Part shown: positions 2,831 to 48,381 of the stretch, in pieces
How positions within the stretch are numbered: the stretch's first letter is position 1
How the letters are laid out: each line of letters begins with the position of its first letter
Origin: a virus
Virus genome (UHGV): UHGV-0240317
Reading direction: 5' to 3' (one strand)
DNA: 64,000 bases
Notes under the pieces: generated by a model
What the model was told of the DNA's origin: nothing
The model's input: only the letters and a program-made list of their open reading frames with translations
Databases searched by the model: none
Made by a program: the position numbers and the translations under genes

Positions 2831-3221
2831 AGAAATCCCAGTATTAGTTGATGTTACACCTTATGCAAACTGGCTTGATGCAGCATATGCAGAAGCAAAG
2901 ATTTTTGAATTTGACGGTATTCTAAGATTAAAATTTATTAATAATGGTAAAACCCTGTTCCATGTACGTGATGATGCAGATGGTTGTCCTGTTTTTGGAA
3001 TCTTTGATGAAGTATACCCGAAATACGCAATCCACTACCCAGATGGCGGTGAAGACTGGACAACCAAATCAATCTTTGATGAGCTTAATGGTGTTCCATT
3101 TGAGCAAGAAGAAGAAGAAGCGGAAGAACCTGTTGAACTCACCTTCACTTTTATCAAAGAAGAGAAAGTGGGTGACTTATCAGTAACTGAAGCAATTCAA
3201 GTCTCACAGGTTATTCGTTAA
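2817..3221 (+). CDS. hypothetical protein (acidic)
   Basis: ORF with GAGGTGA RBS; overlaps neighbours by a few nt. Confidence 0.6.
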   Translation: MIMSKEIPVLVDVTPYANWLDAAYAEAKIFEFDGILRLKFINNGKTLFHVRDDADGCPVFGIFDEVYPKYAIHYPDGGEDWTTKSIFDELNGVPFEQEEEEAEEPVELTFTFIKEEKVGDLSVTEAIQVSQVIR

Positions 3222-3514
3222 TGAGTAAAGTACAGGTTATTTTCCCAATTTGTGACTTCTCACTAGAGCGTGAACTTGACCTGTATGAAGAAATTACTGA
3301 CGAAATCATCTGGTCTGTTGTAGAAGAGGCTATCAAGAAACTGTATGGTGGCCTCTTAAACCCATCAAGTAAAAAGCTCAATACTAAACAAGTAGCTGAT
3401 ACGTACACTTCATATGATGCCTACAACAAACCTTTTGAGAATACCTGCTTTGACCTTATGGTAGGTAATAACAAAGTCAACTATTTCTTCGTCAGAGAGT
3501 TTAACGATGAGTAA
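3221..3514 (+). CDS. hypothetical protein
   Basis: ORF track; tight packing. Confidence 0.5.
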   Translation: MSKVQVIFPICDFSLERELDLYEEITDEIIWSVVEEAIKKLYGGLLNPSSKKLNTKQVADTYTSYDAYNKPFENTCFDLMVGNNKVNYFFVREFNDE

Positions 3515-3851
3515 GCTCCATGTCACAGTGTACAAAAACTTCTCAGACATCAAAGAGTCTTTAACAAATAAGCTTGACTTACAACGTAAAAGACTCTTTT
3601 TAATGTATGACATAGACAACTACGACCATCCTAAAGAGTTTAACTACAAAGATGGTACAAAGGTTGTTGAATTTGAAGATTCTGTAACAGTGTATGTCAA
3701 ACATGACTTACCAGCAAAGTACATAGGGATGTTAGAGTACTATATATTCAAACATACAGGTATGCGCGGTGAATCTGTCAAGATATCTTCTATAGAAGTT
3801 TTTGAGAAACCTAACACACAACTTAAAAAGTATTTAATGAGGAAACTGTAA
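3507..3851 (+). CDS. hypothetical protein
   Basis: ORF track; tight packing. Confidence 0.55.
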   Translation: MSKLHVTVYKNFSDIKESLTNKLDLQRKRLFLMYDIDNYDHPKEFNYKDGTKVVEFEDSVTVYVKHDLPAKYIGMLEYYIFKHTGMRGESVKISSIEVFEKPNTQLKKYLMRKL

Positions 3852-4432
3852 TGTCCGAAGAGCAACAGAATATTACCCCACAAGTAACACTAGTCCAACA
3901 TTTTGGGAACATTGAAGGTTGTGTTGCACTTTTTCAACCAAGTATCAATTCTCCTGCAAAAGTCTGTAAGTTGACTATGAATGTCAACAATATCAGTGTT
4001 TGCCTTGTTGATGAAGTACAATACTTCAAATTCAATGACAGAGAAGTTGATGCTGCACTATTGAAGTATCGAGCAAGCCTCGAAAAAGACATTGACCACA
4101 AAGAACTTGTCACACTGTTTGGTGACCTACACAAGCTTCTTGAAAAGGTTATTAAGCGTACATACTACATGAACAATGGTTCAATCATCACAACTTTGAT
4201 TTCTCCATGTATCTCAGAGCCAATTCTGACAGATGACGGTGGATACTATGTGGTAGCATCAGCAGATTCTGATTGGTGGATGAAGAACACAGCACTTAAA
4301 ACAGTGATTGAGGCTATCCGTGAACACATTCCTTCATTCAGCCCGTGGAAAGGTAAAAGTGATGATTTCATTGCACTGTTGAGTGAAGAGAGTAACAAGC
4401 GCAGTGCATTGCTGCCTAAAAAATACTCTTGA
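3851..4432 (+). CDS. hypothetical protein
   Basis: ORF with GAGGAAA RBS. Confidence 0.6.
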   Translation: MSEEQQNITPQVTLVQHFGNIEGCVALFQPSINSPAKVCKLTMNVNNISVCLVDEVQYFKFNDREVDAALLKYRASLEKDIDHKELVTLFGDLHKLLEKVIKRTYYMNNGSIITTLISPCISEPILTDDGGYYVVASADSDWWMKNTALKTVIEAIREHIPSFSPWKGKSDDFIALLSEESNKRSALLPKKYS

Positions 4433-28807: not shown

Positions 28808-29755
28808 TTACATAGAAACCCTATCCTTAATTTCTGCCATCTTAGCGTCATTCATTCGAGACTGACCTTTAATTTTTGTGAATGACAAGTACCCGCACAC
28901 CCTGTTAATCACAGAGATATCGTGTGAATGGCAAACCTCACACTCTTCAACATCAGCCTTTGGTCTGTTACCACAATGTTCACAGATTGCTAAGTCAAAG
29001 TTAAGTCCCTGATAGAAACCTTTCAACATCCCTCTTGTAATACAACTTTTAAGTGCTGATAAGTTTTCTGGATTAGCTACCCTTACATACTGGATTCTGC
29101 CGCCTCTACAGATATGGAAGAAGGGTTCTTCTAAGTCCTGCTTCTCAAATGGTGAGATGTTTGCTGCAACATTCATATGGAAACTGTTTGTGAAGTATTC
29201 CTTGTCAGAAACACCTTTAATAATCCCAAACATCTCTCTGAACTGTTTTAGCTGAGTTCCGCAAAGTGATTCTGCTGGAGTACCATAGACGGCATATAAG
29301 AAGCCATCTTCATTTTTAAACTCTTCGGTTTTCATGTTGATGTATGCCAGAACATCATATGCAAAGCTATAGTTTCCAACTTCATGAAGTCGTTTACCTT
29401 CAGCAAGAACAGACAACTCATCAAGCGCAGTAACACCAAAAGAAGCTGTGAAGGACTTCACAATATCCCAACCAACCTTGTCAGTAGGCTTCTTAGTTCC
29501 TTTGTACAGACCACCTTGTGTAAATGCAAGAGGGTTAGAACTTGCTGGCATATTAGCAATCATTTCATAGCGTTTCTTGTGGAAACTACGAATCATCTCT
29601 AGGTACTTATCAAGCTCTTTCCAGAAATCTAAACCATTCTCTTTAGAGTACTGGTAAATCATCGGTAAGTTCAAAGATACAGCACCAATGTTTGCACGAC
29701 CTACATAAAACTCTTCACCATATTCGTTATGGTATGGTGATAAAAATGCTCTACA
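28808..29755 (-). CDS. nrdD: anaerobic ribonucleoside-triphosphate reductase, exon 2
   Basis: begins CRAFLSPY..., matching T4 NrdD ...SPMG|CRSFL; C-terminal Zn site CEHCG..CEVC and glycyl-radical RVCGYL. Confidence 0.85.
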   Translation of the reverse strand, partial: CRAFLSPYHNEYGEEFYVGRANIGAVSLNLPMIYQYSKENGLDFWKELDKYLEMIRSFHKKRYEMIANMPASSNPLAFTQGGLYKGTKKPTDKVGWDIVKSFTASFGVTALDELSVLAEGKRLHEVGNYSFAYDVLAYINMKTEEFKNEDGFLYAVYGTPAESLCGTQLKQFREMFGIIKGVSDKEYFTNSFHMNVAANISPFEKQDLEEPFFHICRGGRIQYVRVANPENLSALKSCITRGMLKGFYQGLNFDLAICEHCGNRPKADVEECEVCHSHDISVINRVCGYLSFTKIKGQSRMNDAKMAEIKDRVSM

Positions 29756-30497
29756 CTTGTTGTTCAGGTAAGTTCGCTAAGCTTACCCCGCTTTATTCAA
29801 GCTGCTTACTGTCGCCAGTAAGTCCAGACTATATCTTCTACTTATTTCTAAGTAGCGTACCATTTCGAGTCGCTTGACCCTACACCGCTACATTCATCAC
29901 GGTTAGTCGTTCGGCATTTAGATGTATTCAAACTCATATTCGAAGTTATTATGCTCTTTTACACCCTTCAATATTGAAGAGATGGTCTTGCGATTGTGTC
30001 CAAGTATATTGGATAACTCTCGTATTGACTTAGTAACAATAACTTCCTTTGTCACTTTGTGTGTGGCTTTCACGGCATATGAACGCTTGTGGAACTTGTA
30101 GCACCCGTTCTCATAACCCTCTTTAGCATTCTCAGAATGAGTACCCCATTCTAAGTTGGATGCGTGGTTATTTAGTTTGTTATCGTCCTTATGTTTTACA
30201 ATTGGAAGATTATTTGGGTTAGGTACATATTTCTCAGCAACTAACCTGTGGACATACATGTCACGATTCTTCTTACCGTAAAACCTCACTTTCATATACC
30301 CAGTGTTGGATTTCCACTGCGTAAGCTCTACACCATTTTCCCTAAAGACTTTTCTATCTTCAGTGACGTGATAGTTTGGCATGTAAGACTCCTATGTTGT
30401 ATAGTTTCTTACATCGTACATCATTTAGCACAGGATTGTCTACATCTGTAGAGTTTCCCTGTTTAGGCACGTTTTAGATGAGCTATAGAGCTTGTTA
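29756..30497 (-). mobile_element. group I intron in nrdD carrying an HNH endonuclease ORF
   Basis: exon 1 ends with U, intron ends with G, S-like element GAAGATATAGTCTGG; boundaries inferred. Confidence 0.75.
29918..30382 (-). CDS. intron-encoded HNH homing endonuclease
   Basis: HRLVAEKYVPNPNNLPIVKHKDDNKLNNHASNLEWGTHSEN HNH motif. Confidence 0.85.
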   Translation of the reverse strand: MPNYHVTEDRKVFRENGVELTQWKSNTGYMKVRFYGKKNRDMYVHRLVAEKYVPNPNNLPIVKHKDDNKLNNHASNLEWGTHSENAKEGYENGCYKFHKRSYAVKATHKVTKEVIVTKSIRELSNILGHNRKTISSILKGVKEHNNFEYEFEYI

Positions 30498-31694
30498 ACC
30501 CATCGGTGAAATAACCTTACCAGAACGCTCAAAAGCCTCTGCTACAGCACCATGACCAGATACACTTAAGAAGTCTGGATACATTGCTTTAGAGCAACAC
30601 TCAATAGCTTTACTGTACAGGTGACTTTGACAGATATTTTCATCATGTCTCTTCTGGTCATAAATATAAACCAGTTTAGGGAATACAACAGGTTTTTTGC
30701 TCTTGCCTTGTCCATTCATACGAACATCTAGGAGAGTACTTGCAATCATGTATTGTAGTCGATTATCCTCATTAGACATATCTGAGTCAAGTAAACCAAA
30801 TGTTAAAGTTGTGAATGCAAAATCACCACGGCTACAAGGTACGGTATTTAGTTTCATCTCAAGTGACTGAAAACCTTGAGTCAGTTCAATTTGTAACTGC
30901 TCCATTACATAATTGTGGTAATGCTCTTTAGGAATACCATAAGATGATGCTTTCTCAGCATGATAGCGTAGAGACTTCTTAGCATACGGTACAAGTACCT
31001 TATCAATCTCTGCTAAAGTAAAACCACCAAATTGCTGTGCAGTTGCTGAAAGTACTACGTCACCAATAACCTGCAACGCTGACAGTACAGATTTAGGTTC
31101 ACAGTACTCAATGCCGGACATTTCAAAGCCACCTTTTAGTACTTTACCAATGTCAAACAGGCAACAGTTAATACCACCAAAAATCAGGTCTCTCAAATCG
31201 TGGATATAGATAAAGCCTTTCTCAATGGCTTCAAGTTCCTCTGGTGTTAGATGATACTGTTTAAAGATTTCTTTAGTCAGGTAACCACGGATAATTGAAC
31301 CTTTCGTAGAAATTAAACTGCTGTCAAAGTTAGCATTTTCACGGTCACCTAAGAAGAGTGTATCTTTGGTCTTCTGGTAAAGCTCATCCCAATTTTGAGC
31401 AACTTCTTTACGGTAATTTCTATATGTTGAGTAAGACTCATAAATCTCGTGATTGACTTCTGCCAAAGCACCCTCAACAATACTGTGAATATCATTTACA
31501 GAAATTAGCAAATTATTCTGCTTAGTGGACTTTACCAGAATCCTCATAAATGCTGACTCAAGAGCTTGGGTAACATCTGGTGGAAGTTCTTTATATCCAA
31601 CCCTGTTAGCTGACTTTGTGACTGCTGCTAAAACTTTTTTGATATCAGGTTCTTCAAGTGAGCCATTCTTTTTAATAATCTGTACTTTGTTCAT
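30498..31694 (-). CDS. nrdD: anaerobic ribonucleoside-triphosphate reductase, exon 1
   Basis: GGINCCLFDIGKVL and ...AMYPDFLSVSGHG...KVISPMG align with T4 NrdD. Confidence 0.85.
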
Positions 31695-44619: not shown

Positions 44620-44876
44620 GTAAGCCTCTTTTAAGTAACTATTAAGTTTTAATCTTTTATCTTAACGTATTCTATACGTTATACTTTAAAGCTTTTTAAA
44701 AGCTATTAAATAATCTTTTAAGAGTTTTAAAGTATCTGTATAGTTAAACTGTTAAGTAACCTTTTAAGTAAAAACCCACTTCGCAAAGATTAACACCTTG
44801 TCAAGTGCATTGTCAACTTGCTTTTTATAATTTTTTGCAGTAATGTATGAGGTTAATGATTTTAGAGGGAGTAAAA

Positions 44877-47019
44877 ATGGAAAACGTAGATTTTAAAAAC
44901 TTACATTTAGTTGGTGATACAGAAACTGATGGTTTACTCCTTGAGTTCACTAAAGTGCACGTAATGGCTTTCGCAGACTATAAATCTGACGATGAAGAGC
45001 CACCTGTATGGGTCTTTACAGATGAGCCTATCCTCGGTCACAAGTATACCAAGTACATTAAGGGTGGCTTACGTGAAGGTGTTGAATTTGCGTTAAAGGC
45101 AAAACGTCTTTGCATCCATAATGGTCTCGGTTATGACTGGTGGGTTTTTAATCACATTGCACCTGATTTATGGAACTTTGATAATCCAAAGTGTAAACCG
45201 TGGAGTAATTTCTTTCAGGATTCTCTTATCCAGTCTCGTGTTCAGTGGATGGATAGACCAACCCCAAAAGGTTATAAGGGTGCTCATGGCTTGGCTGCAT
45301 GGGGTGCTCGTGTTGGTGTCCGTAAACCAGAGATTGAACATTGGGGTGTGTGGAATGCAGAAATCTTCACTCGTGTTGTAGAAGATATCCGTATTAACGC
45401 CAAAACTAAACGGGCACTTGATAATGAATATCTCAAGCTTAAGAAGTGTGGCATAGATACTTATGAAACCTACATGCGAGCTAAAGAAACATCTTTTTGG
45501 ATGAGTCAACAAGCTATCAATGGCTGGAAAGCTGATAAAGAGCTTATGGAGTTCCATGTAAAGGAACTTGACAAGTTGACTAATGAGCTTGCTTCAGAGG
45601 TTGAACCACATCTACCTCCAACTATTAAGACCAAAGGTAAAGTCACTGGAGAAGAGTTTGCAAAAGCTTGGAATGAGTATGTTGAAACATTTGGTCATGC
45701 AGATGGACTGAAGAGAATTACCAAGTACCCTAAGACAAAGTATCGTCAGCAGGTACGTAATGGTGAGATGCAGACTTATGAAATCAAACCATTTGGTAAG
45801 CCAACTACAAAGATTTTTAACATTGAAAAGAGAAATTGCTATACACCAACCAACTCTGTAACTGGTGAAGAGTACAAGGAAGGTTTTGTAGCAATGAAGG
45901 ATGCTCGTGCAATTTGCAATGAGTTGAATGCAAAGATTGGTAAGAAATGCAAAGACTGGAAGCCAGCAAAAACAGTTAAGACTGTGAAGTACTATAACAG
46001 CCATGTTGTTAACCACTTTGAGCTTGAGTCAAGTCGCTACACAGGTTTGATTGATGCACCATATACACCAATCGAGTTCGAAGTTTCTCGTATGACTCAG
46101 GTAGCAGTTGTTAAAGACTACTTGAAATCAGTTGGTTGGATTCCAGATGACTGGAACTATAAGAAAGACTCTGATGGTCGTCCTGTTAAGGTTTGTCGCT
46201 TCAAAGACAACAAAAAGATGATTACAAAGCATCCTAAATGGCAGGAAATGGTTGAACGGTGTGGTTTGAGCTATGTTGAACATGAAGGCGTCCAGTACAT
46301 TGAGCATAACTGGTCTGTGAAGAAATACACAGATTTGCTTGAGCCTTGCTTAATCCGTACTTCACCAAAACTTACTGAATCATCTTATGATACGATTGAA
46401 GGTGAGCTTGGACAGAAGATTGCTAAGTACTATACTTTGATGCACCGACGCAGAACTATTGAGAACTCAAAGGATGATGAGAAAGGTTGGTTAAACCAGA
46501 TTCGTCCTGATGGTCGCCTTAGTGCTGGTGCAATGGTGTTTGGTACTTCAACTGGACGTATGACACAATATGGTATTGTAAACGTACCGTCTGGTGCTGC
46601 TGTCTATGGAGCACCTATGAGGGAGGTGTGGATTTGTGAAGAGGGGACTAACATTGTTTCTGTTGACCAGAACTCAGCCCAGCTTGTTTTACTGTGTAAC
46701 TTTATGGGTGATAAAGACTTCACCAAAGCAGTAACTGAAGGTAAAGAGTCAGTAGAGTTCACTAAGCAAGATGATGGTAGATACTACTGTAAACATCTTG
46801 ACAAGTATCTTAACCCAGAAACTGACAAGTATCTGCGTTATGATGCTGAAAATGACCTCTATGAAGTCTACACAGGGACTGATGCGCATACACTGAACAG
46901 TATTTACTTTGGTCTTAACAAGGAAGAAGATATTGTCCGTTGTAGGGAGACACAGGGTGAGGAACTTCTCCACGAGATTACAAAAGGTCGTAAGAAAGCC
47001 AAAAATGGCATTTATGCGT
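44877..47019 (+). CDS. DNA polymerase family A, exon 1
   Basis: start at MENVDF with GAGGGAG RBS; exo I DTETDGL; motif A VSVDQNSAQL; first half of motif B RKKAKNGIYA. Confidence 0.85.
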
Positions 47020-47287
47020 CAGTGGCGCATGTAAAACGTTGTGAATTGCTGGAAGCCTAAGTCTGTAAAGATATGGTAATCAGCAGCGAAGCCTCTTGAG
47101 AGGAACGTTCAGAGACTATCGAAAAGCATACTTAATGTATGAACTGAGTAGAGTAGGGTGGTAAGCTAATGACCATACCCAAGTGCAACGGTAGCATCAC
47201 TGCTACGTGATATAGTCCGACACTCCGTAGAAATGCGGAGAAGTTCATAAGAGAACTGGTACACCTTGCGAGTGTATTGACCAGATG
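47020..47287 (+). mobile_element. ORF-less group I intron in the DNA polymerase gene
   Basis: Q-like AATCAGCAG, R-like GTTCAGAGACTA, S-like GATATAGTCC; stops in the polymerase frame; boundaries inferred. Confidence 0.75.
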
Positions 47288-47844
47288 TATTGTTCGGTGC
47301 AGGTGATGAGAAGTTTGCCAAAACCATTAAGGCAGCTTCTACAGAGGAAGGTGCATTGACTAAGCAGACCTACTATATGCGTCTACCAAAGATTAAGAAA
47401 CTACTTGATAGCTTAGAAGCCGATTTTAAGGCGTCTAAAAAGGCTCTGGAAGAGGTTTTTGGGAAGAATTCTTCAATTGCTAAAGGTGGTTATATCAGAG
47501 TCGCTGGAGCATGGATATGGTGCAAATCTCCACATAAACTACTGAACTACCTCCTGATGAGTTCGGAAGCACAGATTCAGAATGAGGCCATCAACCTAGC
47601 AGCAAGAAAAGCCTGTGAAGATGGCCTGACAAAACTGAATGCTCGAAAACCAGCTATCGGAGCAAGGTTACTTCTGGCATATCACGATGAAAATAGTTGG
47701 GAATGTCCAGAGGGTATGACACAGGATATGAAAGCAATTGCTGACTGGATGTATGGACAAGCTTCAAAAAACTTAGGTTTGAGGAAAGAAACACTTGTAA
47801 CTGGTACAGCAAAGGTTGGTAAGAGCTGGTATGAGGTGCATTGA
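47288..47844 (+). CDS. DNA polymerase family A, exon 2
   Basis: continues motif B as LFGAGDEK (T7 pol FLYGAGDEK); carries the C-terminal polymerase domain. Confidence 0.8.
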
Positions 47845-48381
47845 TTGATGGATTTTATTTCACAAAAACGTTTAAAGGAGCTACTACACTATGACCCCGA
47901 AACAGGGGTCTTTACTTGGCTTCGTAGAGAAGGTAAATCAAGAGCTGTTAGTGTTTTTAACAGTAACTATGCAGGAAAGGTAGCAGGTAATGTTCAGACA
48001 GATTCAACTGGTCATAAACAGATTAGTATCTATTTTGACAAGAAAGCACATAAAGCACACAGACTCGCATGGCTTTATGTATATGGCAAGATGCCAAAAG
48101 GTATCATTGACCATATCAACGGAGACTCTCTTGACAACAGGATTGCAAACTTAAGGGAAGCAGATGACTTCCAAAGTGCTTGGAATAAAGGTAAACTAGC
48201 CACCAATAAATCTGGGTACAAGGGTGTAAGCCTTAAGAAGAAGTCTGGTAAGTGGGTCGCACAGATAAGTTATAAAGGTAAGAAGATGTTTTTAGGTTAC
48301 CATGACACCCCTGAAGAAGCCCATAAAGCTTACTGTGAAGCTGCTATGAAACTCCACGGAGAGTTTGCAAAACTAAGTTGA
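47845..48381 (+). CDS. HNH-AP2 homing endonuclease (free-standing)
   Basis: HNH motif HRLAWLYVYG..IDHINGDSLDNRIANL plus AP2-like YKGVS..KWVAQI..GYHDTPEEA. Confidence 0.85.
   Translation: MMDFISQKRLKELLHYDPETGVFTWLRREGKSRAVSVFNSNYAGKVAGNVQTDSTGHKQISIYFDKKAHKAHRLAWLYVYGKMPKGIIDHINGDSLDNRIANLREADDFQSAWNKGKLATNKSGYKGVSLKKKSGKWVAQISYKGKKMFLGYHDTPEEAHKAYCEAAMKLHGEFAKLS

What the first reader, a model, noticed from the sequence alone, without database searches (positions are those of the whole stretch)
47020..47287. Compact ORF-less group I intron inside motif B of the family A DNA polymerase
The polymerase frame closes at 47060 in the middle of motif B (RKKAKNGIYA...) and resumes after a ~230-270 nt gap with ...LFGAGDEK, the rest of motif B. 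The gap has stops in the polymerase frame and contains group I core-like elements (AATCAGCAG, GTTCAGAGACTA, GATATAGTCC). A splice joining U47019 to position 47288 after G47287 would give ...AKNGIYALLFGAGDEK, matching T7 polymerase AKTFIYGFLYGAGDEK in length. The intron has no ORF, so its spread would depend on an endonuclease acting in trans.
Basis: partly seen in the sequence, partly recalled or inferred. Interest (0 to 1): 0.55.

Follow-up and report, generated by a model that had tools for sequence, protein, structure and literature searches.

The report
ORF-less group I intron in polymerase

Summary
Confirmed. The window is a Felix O1-like myovirus (Felixounavirus). Its family A DNA polymerase gene is interrupted at 47020-47287 by a 268-nt group I intron (Rfam RF00028, 62.3 bits against a cut-off of 50). 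Removing exactly these bases gives a single 909-codon frame. At the junction it matches intron-less relatives in length and amino-acid sequence (...KNGIYALLFGAGDEK...). P1 has the U.G pair at the 5' splice site, P10 and the terminal G are present, and P3-P9 are supported by compensatory changes. P7.1/P7.2 place it in subgroup IA (IA2-like).

The intron has no ORF. About 41 related genomes carry the same ribozyme with an Endonuclease VII-type homing endonuclease gene in the P6a loop, and others carry a deletion remnant or no intron.

In the window a ~70-nt tract of foreign polymerase-lineage variants (46997-47335) surrounds the intron. That is a gene-conversion footprint. How the ORF-less form moves is unresolved.

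The site, in motif B at T7 residue 528, differs from the published polymerase intron sites (674, 676, 881). The Meda genome announcement (PMC6486253) already records this ORF-less intron, so it is a known element that has not been characterised. Interest is low to moderate.

The parts
44847..47019 (+). DNA polymerase exon 1 (exonuclease domain, motif A, first half of motif B). Relatives annotate alternative starts equivalent to 44856 or 44877.
   Evidence: ORF list. Collinear with the single polymerase CDS of bumzen and FGS030.
47014..47030 (+). P1. Exon AUGCGU (47014-47019) pairs with the internal guide GCGCAU (47025-47030), giving U47019.G47025 at the 5' splice site.
   Evidence: Read from the sequence. 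Intron-containing alleles all carry GCGT|TAT here, whereas intron-less alleles carry GCAC|TGC or GCCC|TGT.
47020..47287 (+). Group I intron, 268 nt, no ORF, ending in the terminal G47287.
   Evidence: Rfam RF00028 at 62.3 bits. Boundaries fixed by intron-less alleles. Spliced frame is open.
47020..47024 (+). P10 partner: CAGUG pairs with the first five bases of exon 2 (UAUUG, 47288-47292).
   Evidence: Read from the sequence.
47058..47060 (+). In-frame TAA, 13 codons into the intron, that stops ribosomes reading in from exon 1. It lies inside the P5 receptor motif.
47037..47190 (+). P3 (47037-47043 with 47184-47190), enclosing P4 (47047-47052/47080-47085), P5/P5a (47056-47063/47070-47076, with the CCUAAG...UAUGG tetraloop-receptor motif), P6 (47086-47087/47107-47108), P6a hairpin (47092-47103), the 5' strand of P7, P7.1 (47127-47141) and P7.2 (47156-47180).
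   Evidence: All pairs are canonical, and the unconstrained MFE fold recovers 45 of 61. Against two outgroup introns, P3 has 4/7 and 3/7 pairs changed on both sides and P5 has 1/2.
47092..47103 (+). P6a hairpin CCUC-UUGA-GAGG. This is where relatives carry a ~540-nt insert with the Endonuclease VII-type homing endonuclease gene.
   Evidence: Alignment of the four allele types. The C73-G84 pair here is U-A in all ORF-containing forms.
47112..47218 (+). P7 (guanosine-binding helix): G47112 plus 47114-47118 pair with 47213-47218, with A47113 bulged. P7 forms a pseudoknot with P3.
   Evidence: Pairs checked. Invariant in the outgroup introns.
47191..47206 (+). P8: GUAGCA-UCAC-UGCUAC.
   Evidence: Natural variants show C-G, U.G and U-A at pair 176/183.
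47223..47283 (+). P9 (47223-47240, 7 bp with a GAAA loop at 47230-47233), P9.1 (47243-47256) and P9.2 (47257-47283).
   Evidence: Against the outgroups P9 has 5/7 and 3/7 pairs changed on both sides, and the GAAA loop is kept in all three introns.
47288..47844 (+). DNA polymerase exon 2 (second half of motif B, motif C, C-terminus).
   Evidence: Pfam DNA_pol_A, profile positions 218-381. Collinear with intron-less relatives.
46997..47335 (+). Co-conversion footprint: a patchy tract of polymerase-lineage-B variants (23 nt of exon 1 and 48 nt of exon 2) flanking the intron in an otherwise lineage-A gene.
   Evidence: 10 of 16 diagnostic sites in the tract are B-type against 5 of 103 elsewhere. 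Fisher exact p = 1.7e-7.
47845..48381 (+). Free-standing HNH_3 + AP2 endonuclease gene directly after the polymerase stop codon. It is a candidate trans-acting or collaborating endonuclease. Its link to the intron is not shown.
   Evidence: Pfam HNH_3 5e-15 and AP2 1.7e-12. The gene is polymorphic or absent in relatives and is not correlated with intron state.

Best explanation
47020-47287 is a compact group I intron of subgroup IA (IA2-like, without P2) that interrupts codon 725 of the family A DNA polymerase gene of a Felix O1-like phage. The site is in motif B, at the position of T7 Phe528 (E. coli Pol I ~764).

Proposed mechanism:
1. After transcription the RNA folds into the group I core.
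2. Ribosomes entering from exon 1 stop at the in-frame TAA 47058-47060.
3. An exogenous guanosine attacks after U47019, which is held in P1 by the guide GCGCAU.
4. The freed exon 1 attacks after G47287, aligned by P10.
5. Ligation gives GCG-U|UA-UUG and a 909-aa polymerase.

The fold and the splice sites are shown by homology, covariation and intron-less alleles. Catalysis itself is inferred.

The intron has no endonuclease gene, so it is non-autonomous. It reached this polymerase lineage by gene conversion from a donor with a different polymerase allele, which the flanking tract shows.

Inferred, at about even odds: further spread needs an endonuclease supplied in trans. The most likely source is the Endonuclease VII-type homing endonuclease encoded in the P6a loop of the otherwise near-identical sibling introns in related phages.
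For: - **Family match.** Rfam RF00028 at 62.3 bits against 50.
- **Boundaries.** The exact boundaries give an open 909-codon frame whose junction peptide matches intron-less relatives in length and sequence.
- **Splice-site features.** P1 with U.G, P10 and the terminal G are read.
- **Co-variation with the exons.** Exon bases next to the junction co-vary with intron presence: GCGT|TAT with the intron, GCAC|TGC or GCCC|TGT without it.
- **Selection on the fold.** All 16 variable positions among 11 natural copies lie in loops or bulges or keep pairing. Two are compensatory pairs, 73/84 and 176/183, the latter with a U.G intermediate.
- **Outgroups.** Introns of phages LAMP and Moonfish keep every helix, with changes on both sides in P3, P5 and P9. 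They also keep the P5 CCUAAG/UAUGG-type receptor and the GAAA loop on a 7-bp P9.
- **Subgroup.** P7.1 and P7.2 are present, separated by a GUA-containing linker.
- **Expression of exon 2.** No promoter-like site lies on the + strand before exon 2. No ATG or Shine-Dalgarno motif precedes it.
- **Viable carriers.** About 97 sequenced phage records carry the intron.
- **Gene conversion.** Lineage-B variants are confined to 46997-47335 in a lineage-A gene, p = 1.7e-7. The tract has different lengths in eight other carriers.
- **Endonuclease in siblings.** A Pfam Endonuclease_7 ORF (6e-20) sits in the P6a loop of relatives. It is intact in VSe102 and Si3 and frameshifted in VpaE1. It is present in 41 records.
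Against: - No RNA data exist, so splicing is inferred.
- The thermodynamic z-score of the intron alone is modest, -1.85.
- **Mobility step.** If an ORF-containing intron were the donor, its ORF would normally be copied too. Mobilising the ORF-less copy would need a mixed infection that supplies the endonuclease in trans.
- High ribozyme identity across lineages (97-100%) is not by itself evidence of recent transfer. The endonuclease gene embedded in the same ribozyme has diverged as much as the host exons, at 73-76% identity.
- The endonuclease target site is unknown.
Confidence: 0.88

Rival explanations
1. The insertion is not spliced. The polymerase is made as two separately translated polypeptides (737 aa and 184 aa) that assemble, as many GenBank records imply by annotating two 'DNA polymerase' CDSs.
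For: Most related records annotate two polymerase CDSs. A TTG at 47290 could formally start exon 2.
Against: - The break falls inside motif B, two residues after the Tyr that aligns with T7 Tyr526.
- The first ORF would gain 13 unrelated residues.
- Exon 2 has no ATG, Shine-Dalgarno motif or promoter-like site before it.
- The spacer is a complete group I ribozyme under purifying selection on its helices.
- Intron-less alleles are exactly collinear.
- The Meda record joins the two parts into one CDS.
Confidence: 0.03
2. Collaborative or trans homing. The free-standing HNH_3+AP2 endonuclease gene directly downstream (47845-48381) cuts intron-less polymerase alleles at or near the insertion site and so mobilises the ORF-less intron. 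Precedents are the free-standing endonucleases that target intron insertion sites, and T4 MobE acting on the nrdB intron.
For: - An ORF-less intron and a free-standing HNH gene lie about 560 nt apart in one operon.
- Trans and collaborative homing are documented in phages (PMC3984707, PMC2790892).
- A related intron in phage Moonfish encodes an HNH_3+AP2 protein 31% identical to this one.
- In the sampled loci, intron-less phages carrying the window-type HNH gene (95-96% identical) all have the divergent lineage-A insertion-site sequence.
Against: - The HNH gene type does not track intron state. The window-type gene occurs with and without the intron, and the intron occurs with two HNH gene types only 46% identical in protein.
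- A second HNH type coexists with both intron-less site sequences.
- The conversion tract in the window is centred on the intron and does not extend through exon 2 to the HNH gene.
- The flanks moved from lineage B into lineage A, not outward from an A-type donor.
- The lineage-A site divergence (9 of 11 codons) is close to the general synonymous divergence between the lineages.
Confidence: 0.15
3. The 268-nt form is an immobile leftover. It descends from the ORF-containing intron by loss of the endonuclease gene (the late stage of the homing cycle). It now persists only by vertical descent and ordinary recombination because it splices cleanly.
For: - ORF decay and loss do occur in this family. 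VpaE1 has a frameshifted ORF.
- EC106-type introns (311 nt) keep a 43-nt remnant, apparently deleted between short direct repeats GACTCCTAAA.../GACTACCTAAGCAAA.
- All nine sampled carriers of the 268-nt form share one P6a hairpin and an A-type exon 1, consistent with one origin.
Against: - The 268-nt P6a (CCUC-UUGA-GAGG, C73-G84) is not a simple deletion product of the ORF form (UCUCUGUUAGGA...UCCUAACAGAGA, U-A). It would need extra substitutions.
- Both outgroup introns have short P6a hairpins with C-G basal pairs like the ORF-less form, so that form looks ancestral rather than derived.
- Carriers show at least two different flank haplotypes and several tract lengths, which suggests repeated conversion events.
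Confidence: 0.25

Closest known systems
DNA polymerase intron of Salmonella phage Meda (MH586731; PMC6486253)
   Same: The same element. It is 268 nt, 98.5% identical, at the same site and has no ORF. [quoted passage not shown]
   Different: Only a one-sentence mention. No class, structure, splice sites, allele survey or mobility analysis is given. Meda has a different downstream HNH gene type and a different conversion tract.
[quoted passage not shown]
   Same: A family A polymerase gene of an enterobacterial phage. Subgroup IA2 features (P7.1/P7.2). In those introns and in the ORF-containing siblings of this one, the endonuclease ORF sits in P6a.
   Different: Those introns are at E. coli Pol I position 881, and this one is at ~764 in motif B. 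They carry an HNH ORF, whereas the window's copy has none and its siblings carry an Endonuclease VII-type ORF. The host here is a myovirus of a different family.
Polymerase introns of SPO1, SP82, Bastille and cyanophage Pf-WMP3 (I-HmuI, I-HmuII, I-BasI, I-PfoP3I) and phiL7
   Same: Group I introns in conserved finger-domain regions of phage family A polymerases. Pf-WMP3 is also IA2 without P2 (PMC3428280).
   Different: Insertion sites are 674 and 676, not motif B. All of them encode nicking HNH endonucleases.
Polymerase intron of Escherichia phage LAMP (Kuravirus, MG673519)
   Same: ORF-less group I intron (RF00028, 100.8 bits) in motif B of a family A polymerase, with a visibly related core: the same P4, P6 and P7 sequences, the P5 receptor, the GAAA L9 and P9.1. 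The record joins the exons.
   Different: It is inserted exactly 6 nt (two codons) downstream, at the T7 Tyr530 codon. It has a P2 and a long P6a, and it is in an unrelated podovirus.
Trans homing and collaborative homing (T4 MobE with the nrdB intron, PMC2790892; free-standing endonucleases targeting intron insertion sites, reviewed in PMC3984707)
   Same: An endonuclease-lacking or defunct intron sits next to a free-standing HNH endonuclease gene in the same gene cluster, with a conversion footprint around the intron.
   Different: No cleavage or cross data exist here. The comparative data do not tie the adjacent HNH gene to the intron.

Membership tests
Group I intron (Rfam RF00028) | Covariance-model score at or above the curated gathering score | tested here: met
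   62.3 bits against 50, E = 2e-13, full model 1-253.
Group I intron (Rfam RF00028) | 5' splice site after a U that forms a U.G pair in P1 with an internal guide sequence, and a 3'-terminal G | tested here: met
   AUGCGU/GCGCAU with U47019.G47025, and G47287. The boundaries are the only ones that reproduce the intron-less protein.
Group I intron (Rfam RF00028) | Conserved core helices P3-P8 with the P3/P7 pseudoknot and a bulged nucleotide in P7 | tested here: met
   All pairs are canonical. There are compensatory changes in P3, P5, P6a, P8 and P9. P7 is G-(A bulge)-GACUA/UAGUCC.
Group I intron (Rfam RF00028) | Guanosine-dependent self-splicing | not testable with these tools
   Needs RT-PCR or in vitro transcription with GTP.
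Subgroup IA2 | Extra helices P7.1 and P7.2 between P7 and the 3' strand of P3, joined by a GUA-containing linker | tested here: met
   P7.1 is at 47127-47141 and P7.2 at 47156-47180, with the linker ...GAGUAGAGUAGG.... The criterion is as stated in PMC3428280.
Subgroup IA2 | Assignment by a subgroup-specific model or alignment, separating IA2 from IA1 and IA3 | not tested
   No subgroup-specific models are available here, so the assignment is 'IA, IA2-like'.
Autonomous mobile (homing) intron | Intron-encoded homing endonuclease gene | tested here: not met
   The window has no + strand ORF of 30 aa or more in 47020-47287. Sibling introns in 41 records do carry an Endonuclease_7 ORF.
Autonomous mobile (homing) intron | Co-conversion of flanking exon markers | tested here: met
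   A lineage-B tract at 46997-47335 in a lineage-A gene, p = 1.7e-7. Tract lengths vary among other carriers.
Collaborative / trans homing pair | A free-standing endonuclease gene within recombination distance of an ORF-less intron | tested here: met
   HNH_3+AP2 gene at 47845-48381, 558 nt from the intron.
Collaborative / trans homing pair | The free-standing endonuclease cuts intron-less alleles at or near the intron insertion site | not testable with these tools
   Comparative data give no support. The HNH type and the intron state are uncorrelated.

The most novel reading that the evidence does not exclude
The 268-nt ORF-less intron is the ancestral, pre-invasion form of the Felixounavirus polymerase intron. 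Its P6a resembles the outgroups, and the ORF-containing form is derived. It is still mobilised in trans, either by the Endonuclease VII-type endonuclease of sibling introns or by the adjacent free-standing HNH_3+AP2 enzyme.

One genus of easily grown coliphages would then hold every stage of intron-endonuclease association at a single site: empty site, bare ribozyme, ribozyme plus endonuclease gene, decayed gene, and deletion remnant. That would make the formation and decay of mobile introns directly testable by phage crosses.
Probability: 0.2. Interest if true: 0.5.

Novelty: already known. Interest (0 to 1): 0.27.

Why it matters
**Annotation.** Most GenBank records of these phages list two separate 'DNA polymerase' genes, and often an unrelated-looking 'endonuclease VII', where there is one spliced gene. 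Felix O1-like phages are widely proposed for biocontrol and therapy, so correct gene models matter.

**Biology.** The site adds a fourth intron position, in motif B, to the three documented in phage family A polymerases. A related intron sits 6 nt away in an unrelated podovirus, which points to motif B as a recurrent target.

**Model system.** Empty, ORF-less, ORF-containing, frameshifted and remnant alleles coexist in about 255 sequenced relatives. That makes this a convenient natural system for studying the homing cycle and non-autonomous introns. No new principle is involved.

Tried and rejected
- **Ribozyme identity as evidence of recent transfer.** I first read the 97-99% intron identity against 75-88% exon identity as proof of recent horizontal transfer. 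I withdrew that as sole evidence after finding that the endonuclease gene embedded in the same ribozyme has diverged as much as the exons. The conversion tract is the stronger evidence.
- **Site divergence as endonuclease resistance.** I tested whether the lineage-A insertion-site sequence (9 of 11 codons changed synonymously) marks resistance to the adjacent HNH enzyme. The excess over general synonymous divergence between the lineages is not convincing, and a second HNH type coexists with both site types.
- **Simple ORF deletion.** I tried to derive the 268-nt P6a from the ORF-containing form by one deletion, and found no such junction.
- **Staphylococcus phage 6ec.** I checked whether its intron shares the site. 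It lies in the amidase/endolysin gene region, not in a polymerase.
- **Thermodynamics.** The fold z-score (-1.85) is uninformative for a tertiary-structured ribozyme.
- **IMG/VR scan.** It gave only 16 related loci, one of them with an intron, so the census rests on GenBank phage records.
- **Literature.** The original collaborative-homing papers (Bonocora & Shub 2004 and 2009) are not held in the library. Their content is cited through reviews.
- **Covariance model.** I did not build one, because a 268-position model would probably exceed the calibration limit. Helix-by-helix checks were scripted instead.

Full report
**What the window is.** The 2.5 kb around the finding matches 261 phage records. 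Nearly all are Felix O1-like myoviruses (genus Felixounavirus) of Escherichia, Salmonella, Shigella and Citrobacter, and the best matches are 95-97% identical. Many of these records annotate two adjacent 'DNA polymerase' CDSs. Others have a single polymerase CDS and match the query in two pieces covering 88% of it.

**Checking the observation.**
- The polymerase ORF that starts at 44847 closes at TAA 47058-47060, and an ORF reading ...FGAGDEK... runs from 47290 to 47844.
- The three core-like strings are at 47078-47086, 47107-47118 and 47209-47218.
- The Rfam group I intron model RF00028 matches at 62.3 bits (gathering score 50, E = 2e-13). It is the only family above threshold in the whole window.
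- The Rfam alignment misplaces P1/P2 into the exon, so I fixed the boundaries independently.
- Intron-less relatives bumzen (L001) and FGS030 (L003) are collinear with the window once exactly 47020-47287 is removed. The junction then reads ...KNGIYALLFGAGDEK... in all three.
- The spliced frame is 2730 nt, i.e. 909 codons plus stop, with no internal stop.
- Shifting both boundaries by one base in either direction breaks the conserved Ala-Leu-Leu.

**Anatomy.**
- **P1** is exon AUGCGU (47014-47019) paired with GCGCAU (47025-47030), with U47019.G47025 at the splice site.
- **P10** is exon 2 UAUUG (47288-47292) paired with CAGUG (47020-47024). The last intron base is G47287.
- There is no P2.
- The remaining helices (P3, P4, P5/P5a, P6, P6a, P7 with a bulged A, P7.1, P7.2, P8, P9, P9.1, P9.2) are listed with coordinates under 'parts'.
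- All 61 nested pairs and the 6 P7 pairs are canonical. An unconstrained minimum-energy fold recovers 45 of the 61.
- P5 contains the sequence of the classical 11-nt GAAA-tetraloop receptor (CCUAAG...UAUGG), and P9 is a 7-bp stem capped by GAAA. From established knowledge of group I architecture, that is the expected L9-P5 docking pair.
- P7.1 and P7.2, joined by a GUA-containing linker, place the intron in subgroup IA. By the criterion quoted in PMC3428280 it is IA2-like. No subgroup-specific model was available to formalise this.
- The thermodynamic z-score is only -1.85, which is unremarkable for ribozymes that depend on tertiary contacts.

**Evidence that the fold is under selection.**
- Among 11 natural copies from different phages, 16 positions vary.
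- Every one lies in a loop or bulge, converts G.U to G-C, or is half of a compensatory pair.
- The compensatory pairs are 73/84 in P6a (C-G against U-A) and 176/183 in P8 (C-G, U.G and U-A all observed).
- Two divergent relatives serve as outgroups: the introns of Kuravirus LAMP (RF00028, 100.8 bits) and of the schitovirus Moonfish (91 bits).
- Both keep every helix at the same place.
- P3 has 4/7 and 3/7 pairs changed on both sides, P5 has 1/2, and P9 has 5/7 and 3/7.
- P6a, P7.1, P7.2 and P8 are rebuilt from different sequences. The P5 receptor-like motif and the GAAA L9 are retained.

**Expression.**
- Exon 2 has no ATG and no Shine-Dalgarno motif before it. There is no promoter-like site on the + strand.
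- The split falls two residues after the Tyr that aligns with T7 Tyr526. The phmmer alignment to T7 DNA polymerase puts query residue 159 at T7 residue 517, so the junction Leu is at T7 528.
- By the known T7 Tyr526 / E. coli Phe762 equivalence, the site corresponds to E. coli Pol I ~764.
- A polymerase cut there and carrying 13 foreign residues is unlikely to work, and the gene is essential. Yet about 97 records from isolated phages carry the intron. Splicing is therefore strongly inferred, although no RNA data exist.
- The in-frame TAA 13 codons into the intron matches the common arrangement in phage introns. It is thought to stop ribosomes so that the ribozyme can fold (PMC3984707).

**Allelic states in relatives.** The same site exists in at least four states:
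1. **Empty**, for example bumzen, FGS030 and most IMG/VR loci.
2. **The 268-nt ORF-less intron.** This is the form in the window and in pSJ21, BPS17W1, Meda, phiWec174, LNA1, BPS17L1, HMD-P8 and fKMPT1.
3. **An ~800-nt form.** The P6a loop carries a ~540-nt insert with a 160-161-aa ORF.
4. **A 311-nt form** (EC106, S19cd, Tf). It keeps 43 nt of the insert, apparently deleted between short direct repeats.

The ORF of the ~800-nt form matches Pfam Endonuclease_7 (6e-20). Its nearest solved relatives are Hpy99I and T4 endonuclease VII. It is intact in VSe102 and Si3 and frameshifted in VpaE1. Endonuclease VII-motif homing endonucleases are a recognised family (PMC6083498).

Rough census: 261 records match the polymerase region, a few of them not Felix O1-like. 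97 have the intron and 41 of those have the endonuclease gene. That leaves roughly 45-50 ORF-less copies and about ten remnants.

**Footprint of gene conversion.**
- The polymerase genes fall into two lineages that differ by 12-19% in nucleotides over the compared 2 kb.
- At 119 sites that distinguish five intron-less lineage-A genes from nine intron-less lineage-B genes, the window is A-type almost everywhere.
- The exception is a patchy tract from 46997 to 47335, where 10 of 16 sites are B-type against 5 of 103 elsewhere (Fisher p = 1.7e-7).
- The tract includes the Ala-for-Ser change in KK[A/S]KNG.
- The eight other sampled carriers of the 268-nt intron also have an A-type exon 1, with conversion tracts of different lengths.
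- There are at least two flank haplotypes, GGTGCAGGT and GGGGCTGGC.
- The bases immediately at the junction (GCGT|TAT) travel with the intron and are the ones that form P1 and P10.
- This is the pattern expected from repair of a break at or near the insertion site using an intron-containing donor.

**Limits on the mobility inference.**
- The ribozyme is 97-100% identical across all forms, while the exons are 75-88% identical.
- However, the endonuclease gene embedded in the ribozyme is only 73-76% identical between the VSe102 type and the VpaE1/Si3 type. It has diverged as much as the exons. Ribozyme identity alone therefore cannot date the transfer. The contrast itself is unexplained. It could reflect strong constraint, homogenisation of the ribozyme halves by conversion, or old endonuclease alleles.
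- The direction of change between ORF-less and ORF-containing forms is also open. ORF decay and loss clearly occur (VpaE1, EC106).
- Against a deletion origin, the 268-nt P6a is not a one-step deletion of the ORF form. Its C-G basal pair and short hairpin resemble both outgroups. This favours an ancestral, never-invaded ribozyme.

**The neighbouring endonuclease gene.**
- Directly after the polymerase stop lies an HNH_3+AP2 gene at 47845-48381.
- The arrangement recalls collaborative homing and the T4 MobE/nrdB trans-homing case (PMC3984707, PMC2790892).
- A related intron in Moonfish encodes a 31%-identical HNH_3+AP2 protein.
- The comparative data do not link the gene to the intron. The locus holds at least three divergent HNH genes or none. 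The window-type gene occurs with and without the intron.
- The intron occurs with two HNH types that are only 46% identical in protein. One HNH type coexists with both empty-site sequences.
- The window's conversion tract does not reach the HNH gene.
- I keep this as a minority hypothesis.

**Comparison with what is known.**
- Group I introns in phage family A polymerase genes are well documented. They occur at E. coli Pol I positions 674 (SPO1, SP82, Bastille, Pf-WMP3), 676 (phiL7) and 881 (PhiI, W31). Those assigned to a subgroup in PMC3428280 (Pf-WMP3, PhiI, W31) are IA2, and their endonuclease ORFs sit in P6a.
- The present site, ~764 in motif B, is not among these.
- It is not unique, however. 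The LAMP intron lies exactly 6 nt downstream. I confirmed this by finding my predicted spliced LAMP peptide contiguous and 100% identical in an intron-less kuravirus.
- For the Felix O1 group, the type phage was reported to lack introns (PMC3185647).
[quoted passage not shown] Meda's intron is 98.5% identical to this one, and its record joins the exons.
- A paper on phage SPJ41 lists 'two introns' from an RNA scan without detail (PMC9951933).
- The element is therefore already known to exist. Its class, structure, insertion-site novelty, allele series and conversion footprint appear not to be described in the literature I could search.

**Verdict.** This is an ordinary, well-formed IA-type phage intron, non-autonomous in this genome, at a site that is hit recurrently. 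Interest is low to moderate. Its value lies in correcting annotations and as a tractable natural series for studying how introns and homing endonuclease genes associate and separate.

Noticed in passing
window 28808-31694, minus strand: A second group I intron splits the anaerobic ribonucleotide reductase gene nrdD. The exon ORFs are 30495-31694 and 28808-29674, and an HNH_3 endonuclease ORF (29918-30382) lies inside the intron. The ORF splits the Rfam match into two sub-threshold halves (33.1 and 15.5 bits), so the gathering-score scan missed it. This agrees with the Meda announcement (PMC6486253).
   Followed up: partly
L004, L005, L030 (VpaE1, VSe102, Si3 intron inserts): The endonuclease gene inside the sibling introns is only 73-76% identical between allele classes, the same as the host exons. 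The ribozyme halves around it are 97-100% identical. One search shows at least three endonuclease allele classes. The cause is unexplained. It could be constraint, conversion-driven homogenisation of the ribozyme, or old endonuclease alleles.
   Followed up: partly
window 47845-48381 and the equivalent locus in L001-L033: The slot directly after the polymerase gene is a variable site for free-standing HNH_3+AP2 endonuclease genes. There are at least three divergent types (46% protein identity between two of them), or none. In Meda, BPS17L1 and EC6 the last part of polymerase exon 2 switches lineage next to this gene. That suggests the HNH genes home there with their own co-conversion.
   Followed up: partly
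L025 (Escherichia phage LAMP, MG673519) 2459-2762: An ORF-less 304-nt group I intron with a closely related core lies in motif B of an unrelated podovirus polymerase, exactly two codons downstream of the Felixounavirus site. 59 phage records encode the predicted spliced LAMP peptide at 99% identity or more, and the one inspected (TH38) encodes it contiguously.
   Followed up: yes
L007 (Shigella phage Moonfish, PQ613263) 2955-3900: A related group I intron (RF00028, 91 bits) lies between the RNAP2 subunit A CDS and a short downstream CDS annotated 'RNA polymerase'. An HNH_3+AP2 ORF follows the ribozyme core. The record annotates the pieces as separate genes.
   Followed up: partly
L018, L019 (IMG/VR contigs), insertion site: Two intron-less, more divergent polymerase alleles carry GCGT at the 5' side of the empty site, the version otherwise seen only with the intron. 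One also has TA on the 3' side. They could be precise intron-loss alleles or natural pre-adapted targets.
   Followed up: no
search hits H2, H3 (MG065664, MG065668): Two unannotated records labelled 'Campylobacter phage A132/A126' are 96% identical to this Felix O1-like region, intron included. They are probably mislabelled or contaminated assemblies.
   Followed up: no
L033 (Escherichia phage EC6, JX560968) 2514-2996: In the original EC6 record the intron-encoded endonuclease ORF is annotated as 'DNA polymerase I', while the true polymerase exons are 'hypothetical protein'. This is an annotation error caused by the intron.
   Followed up: no
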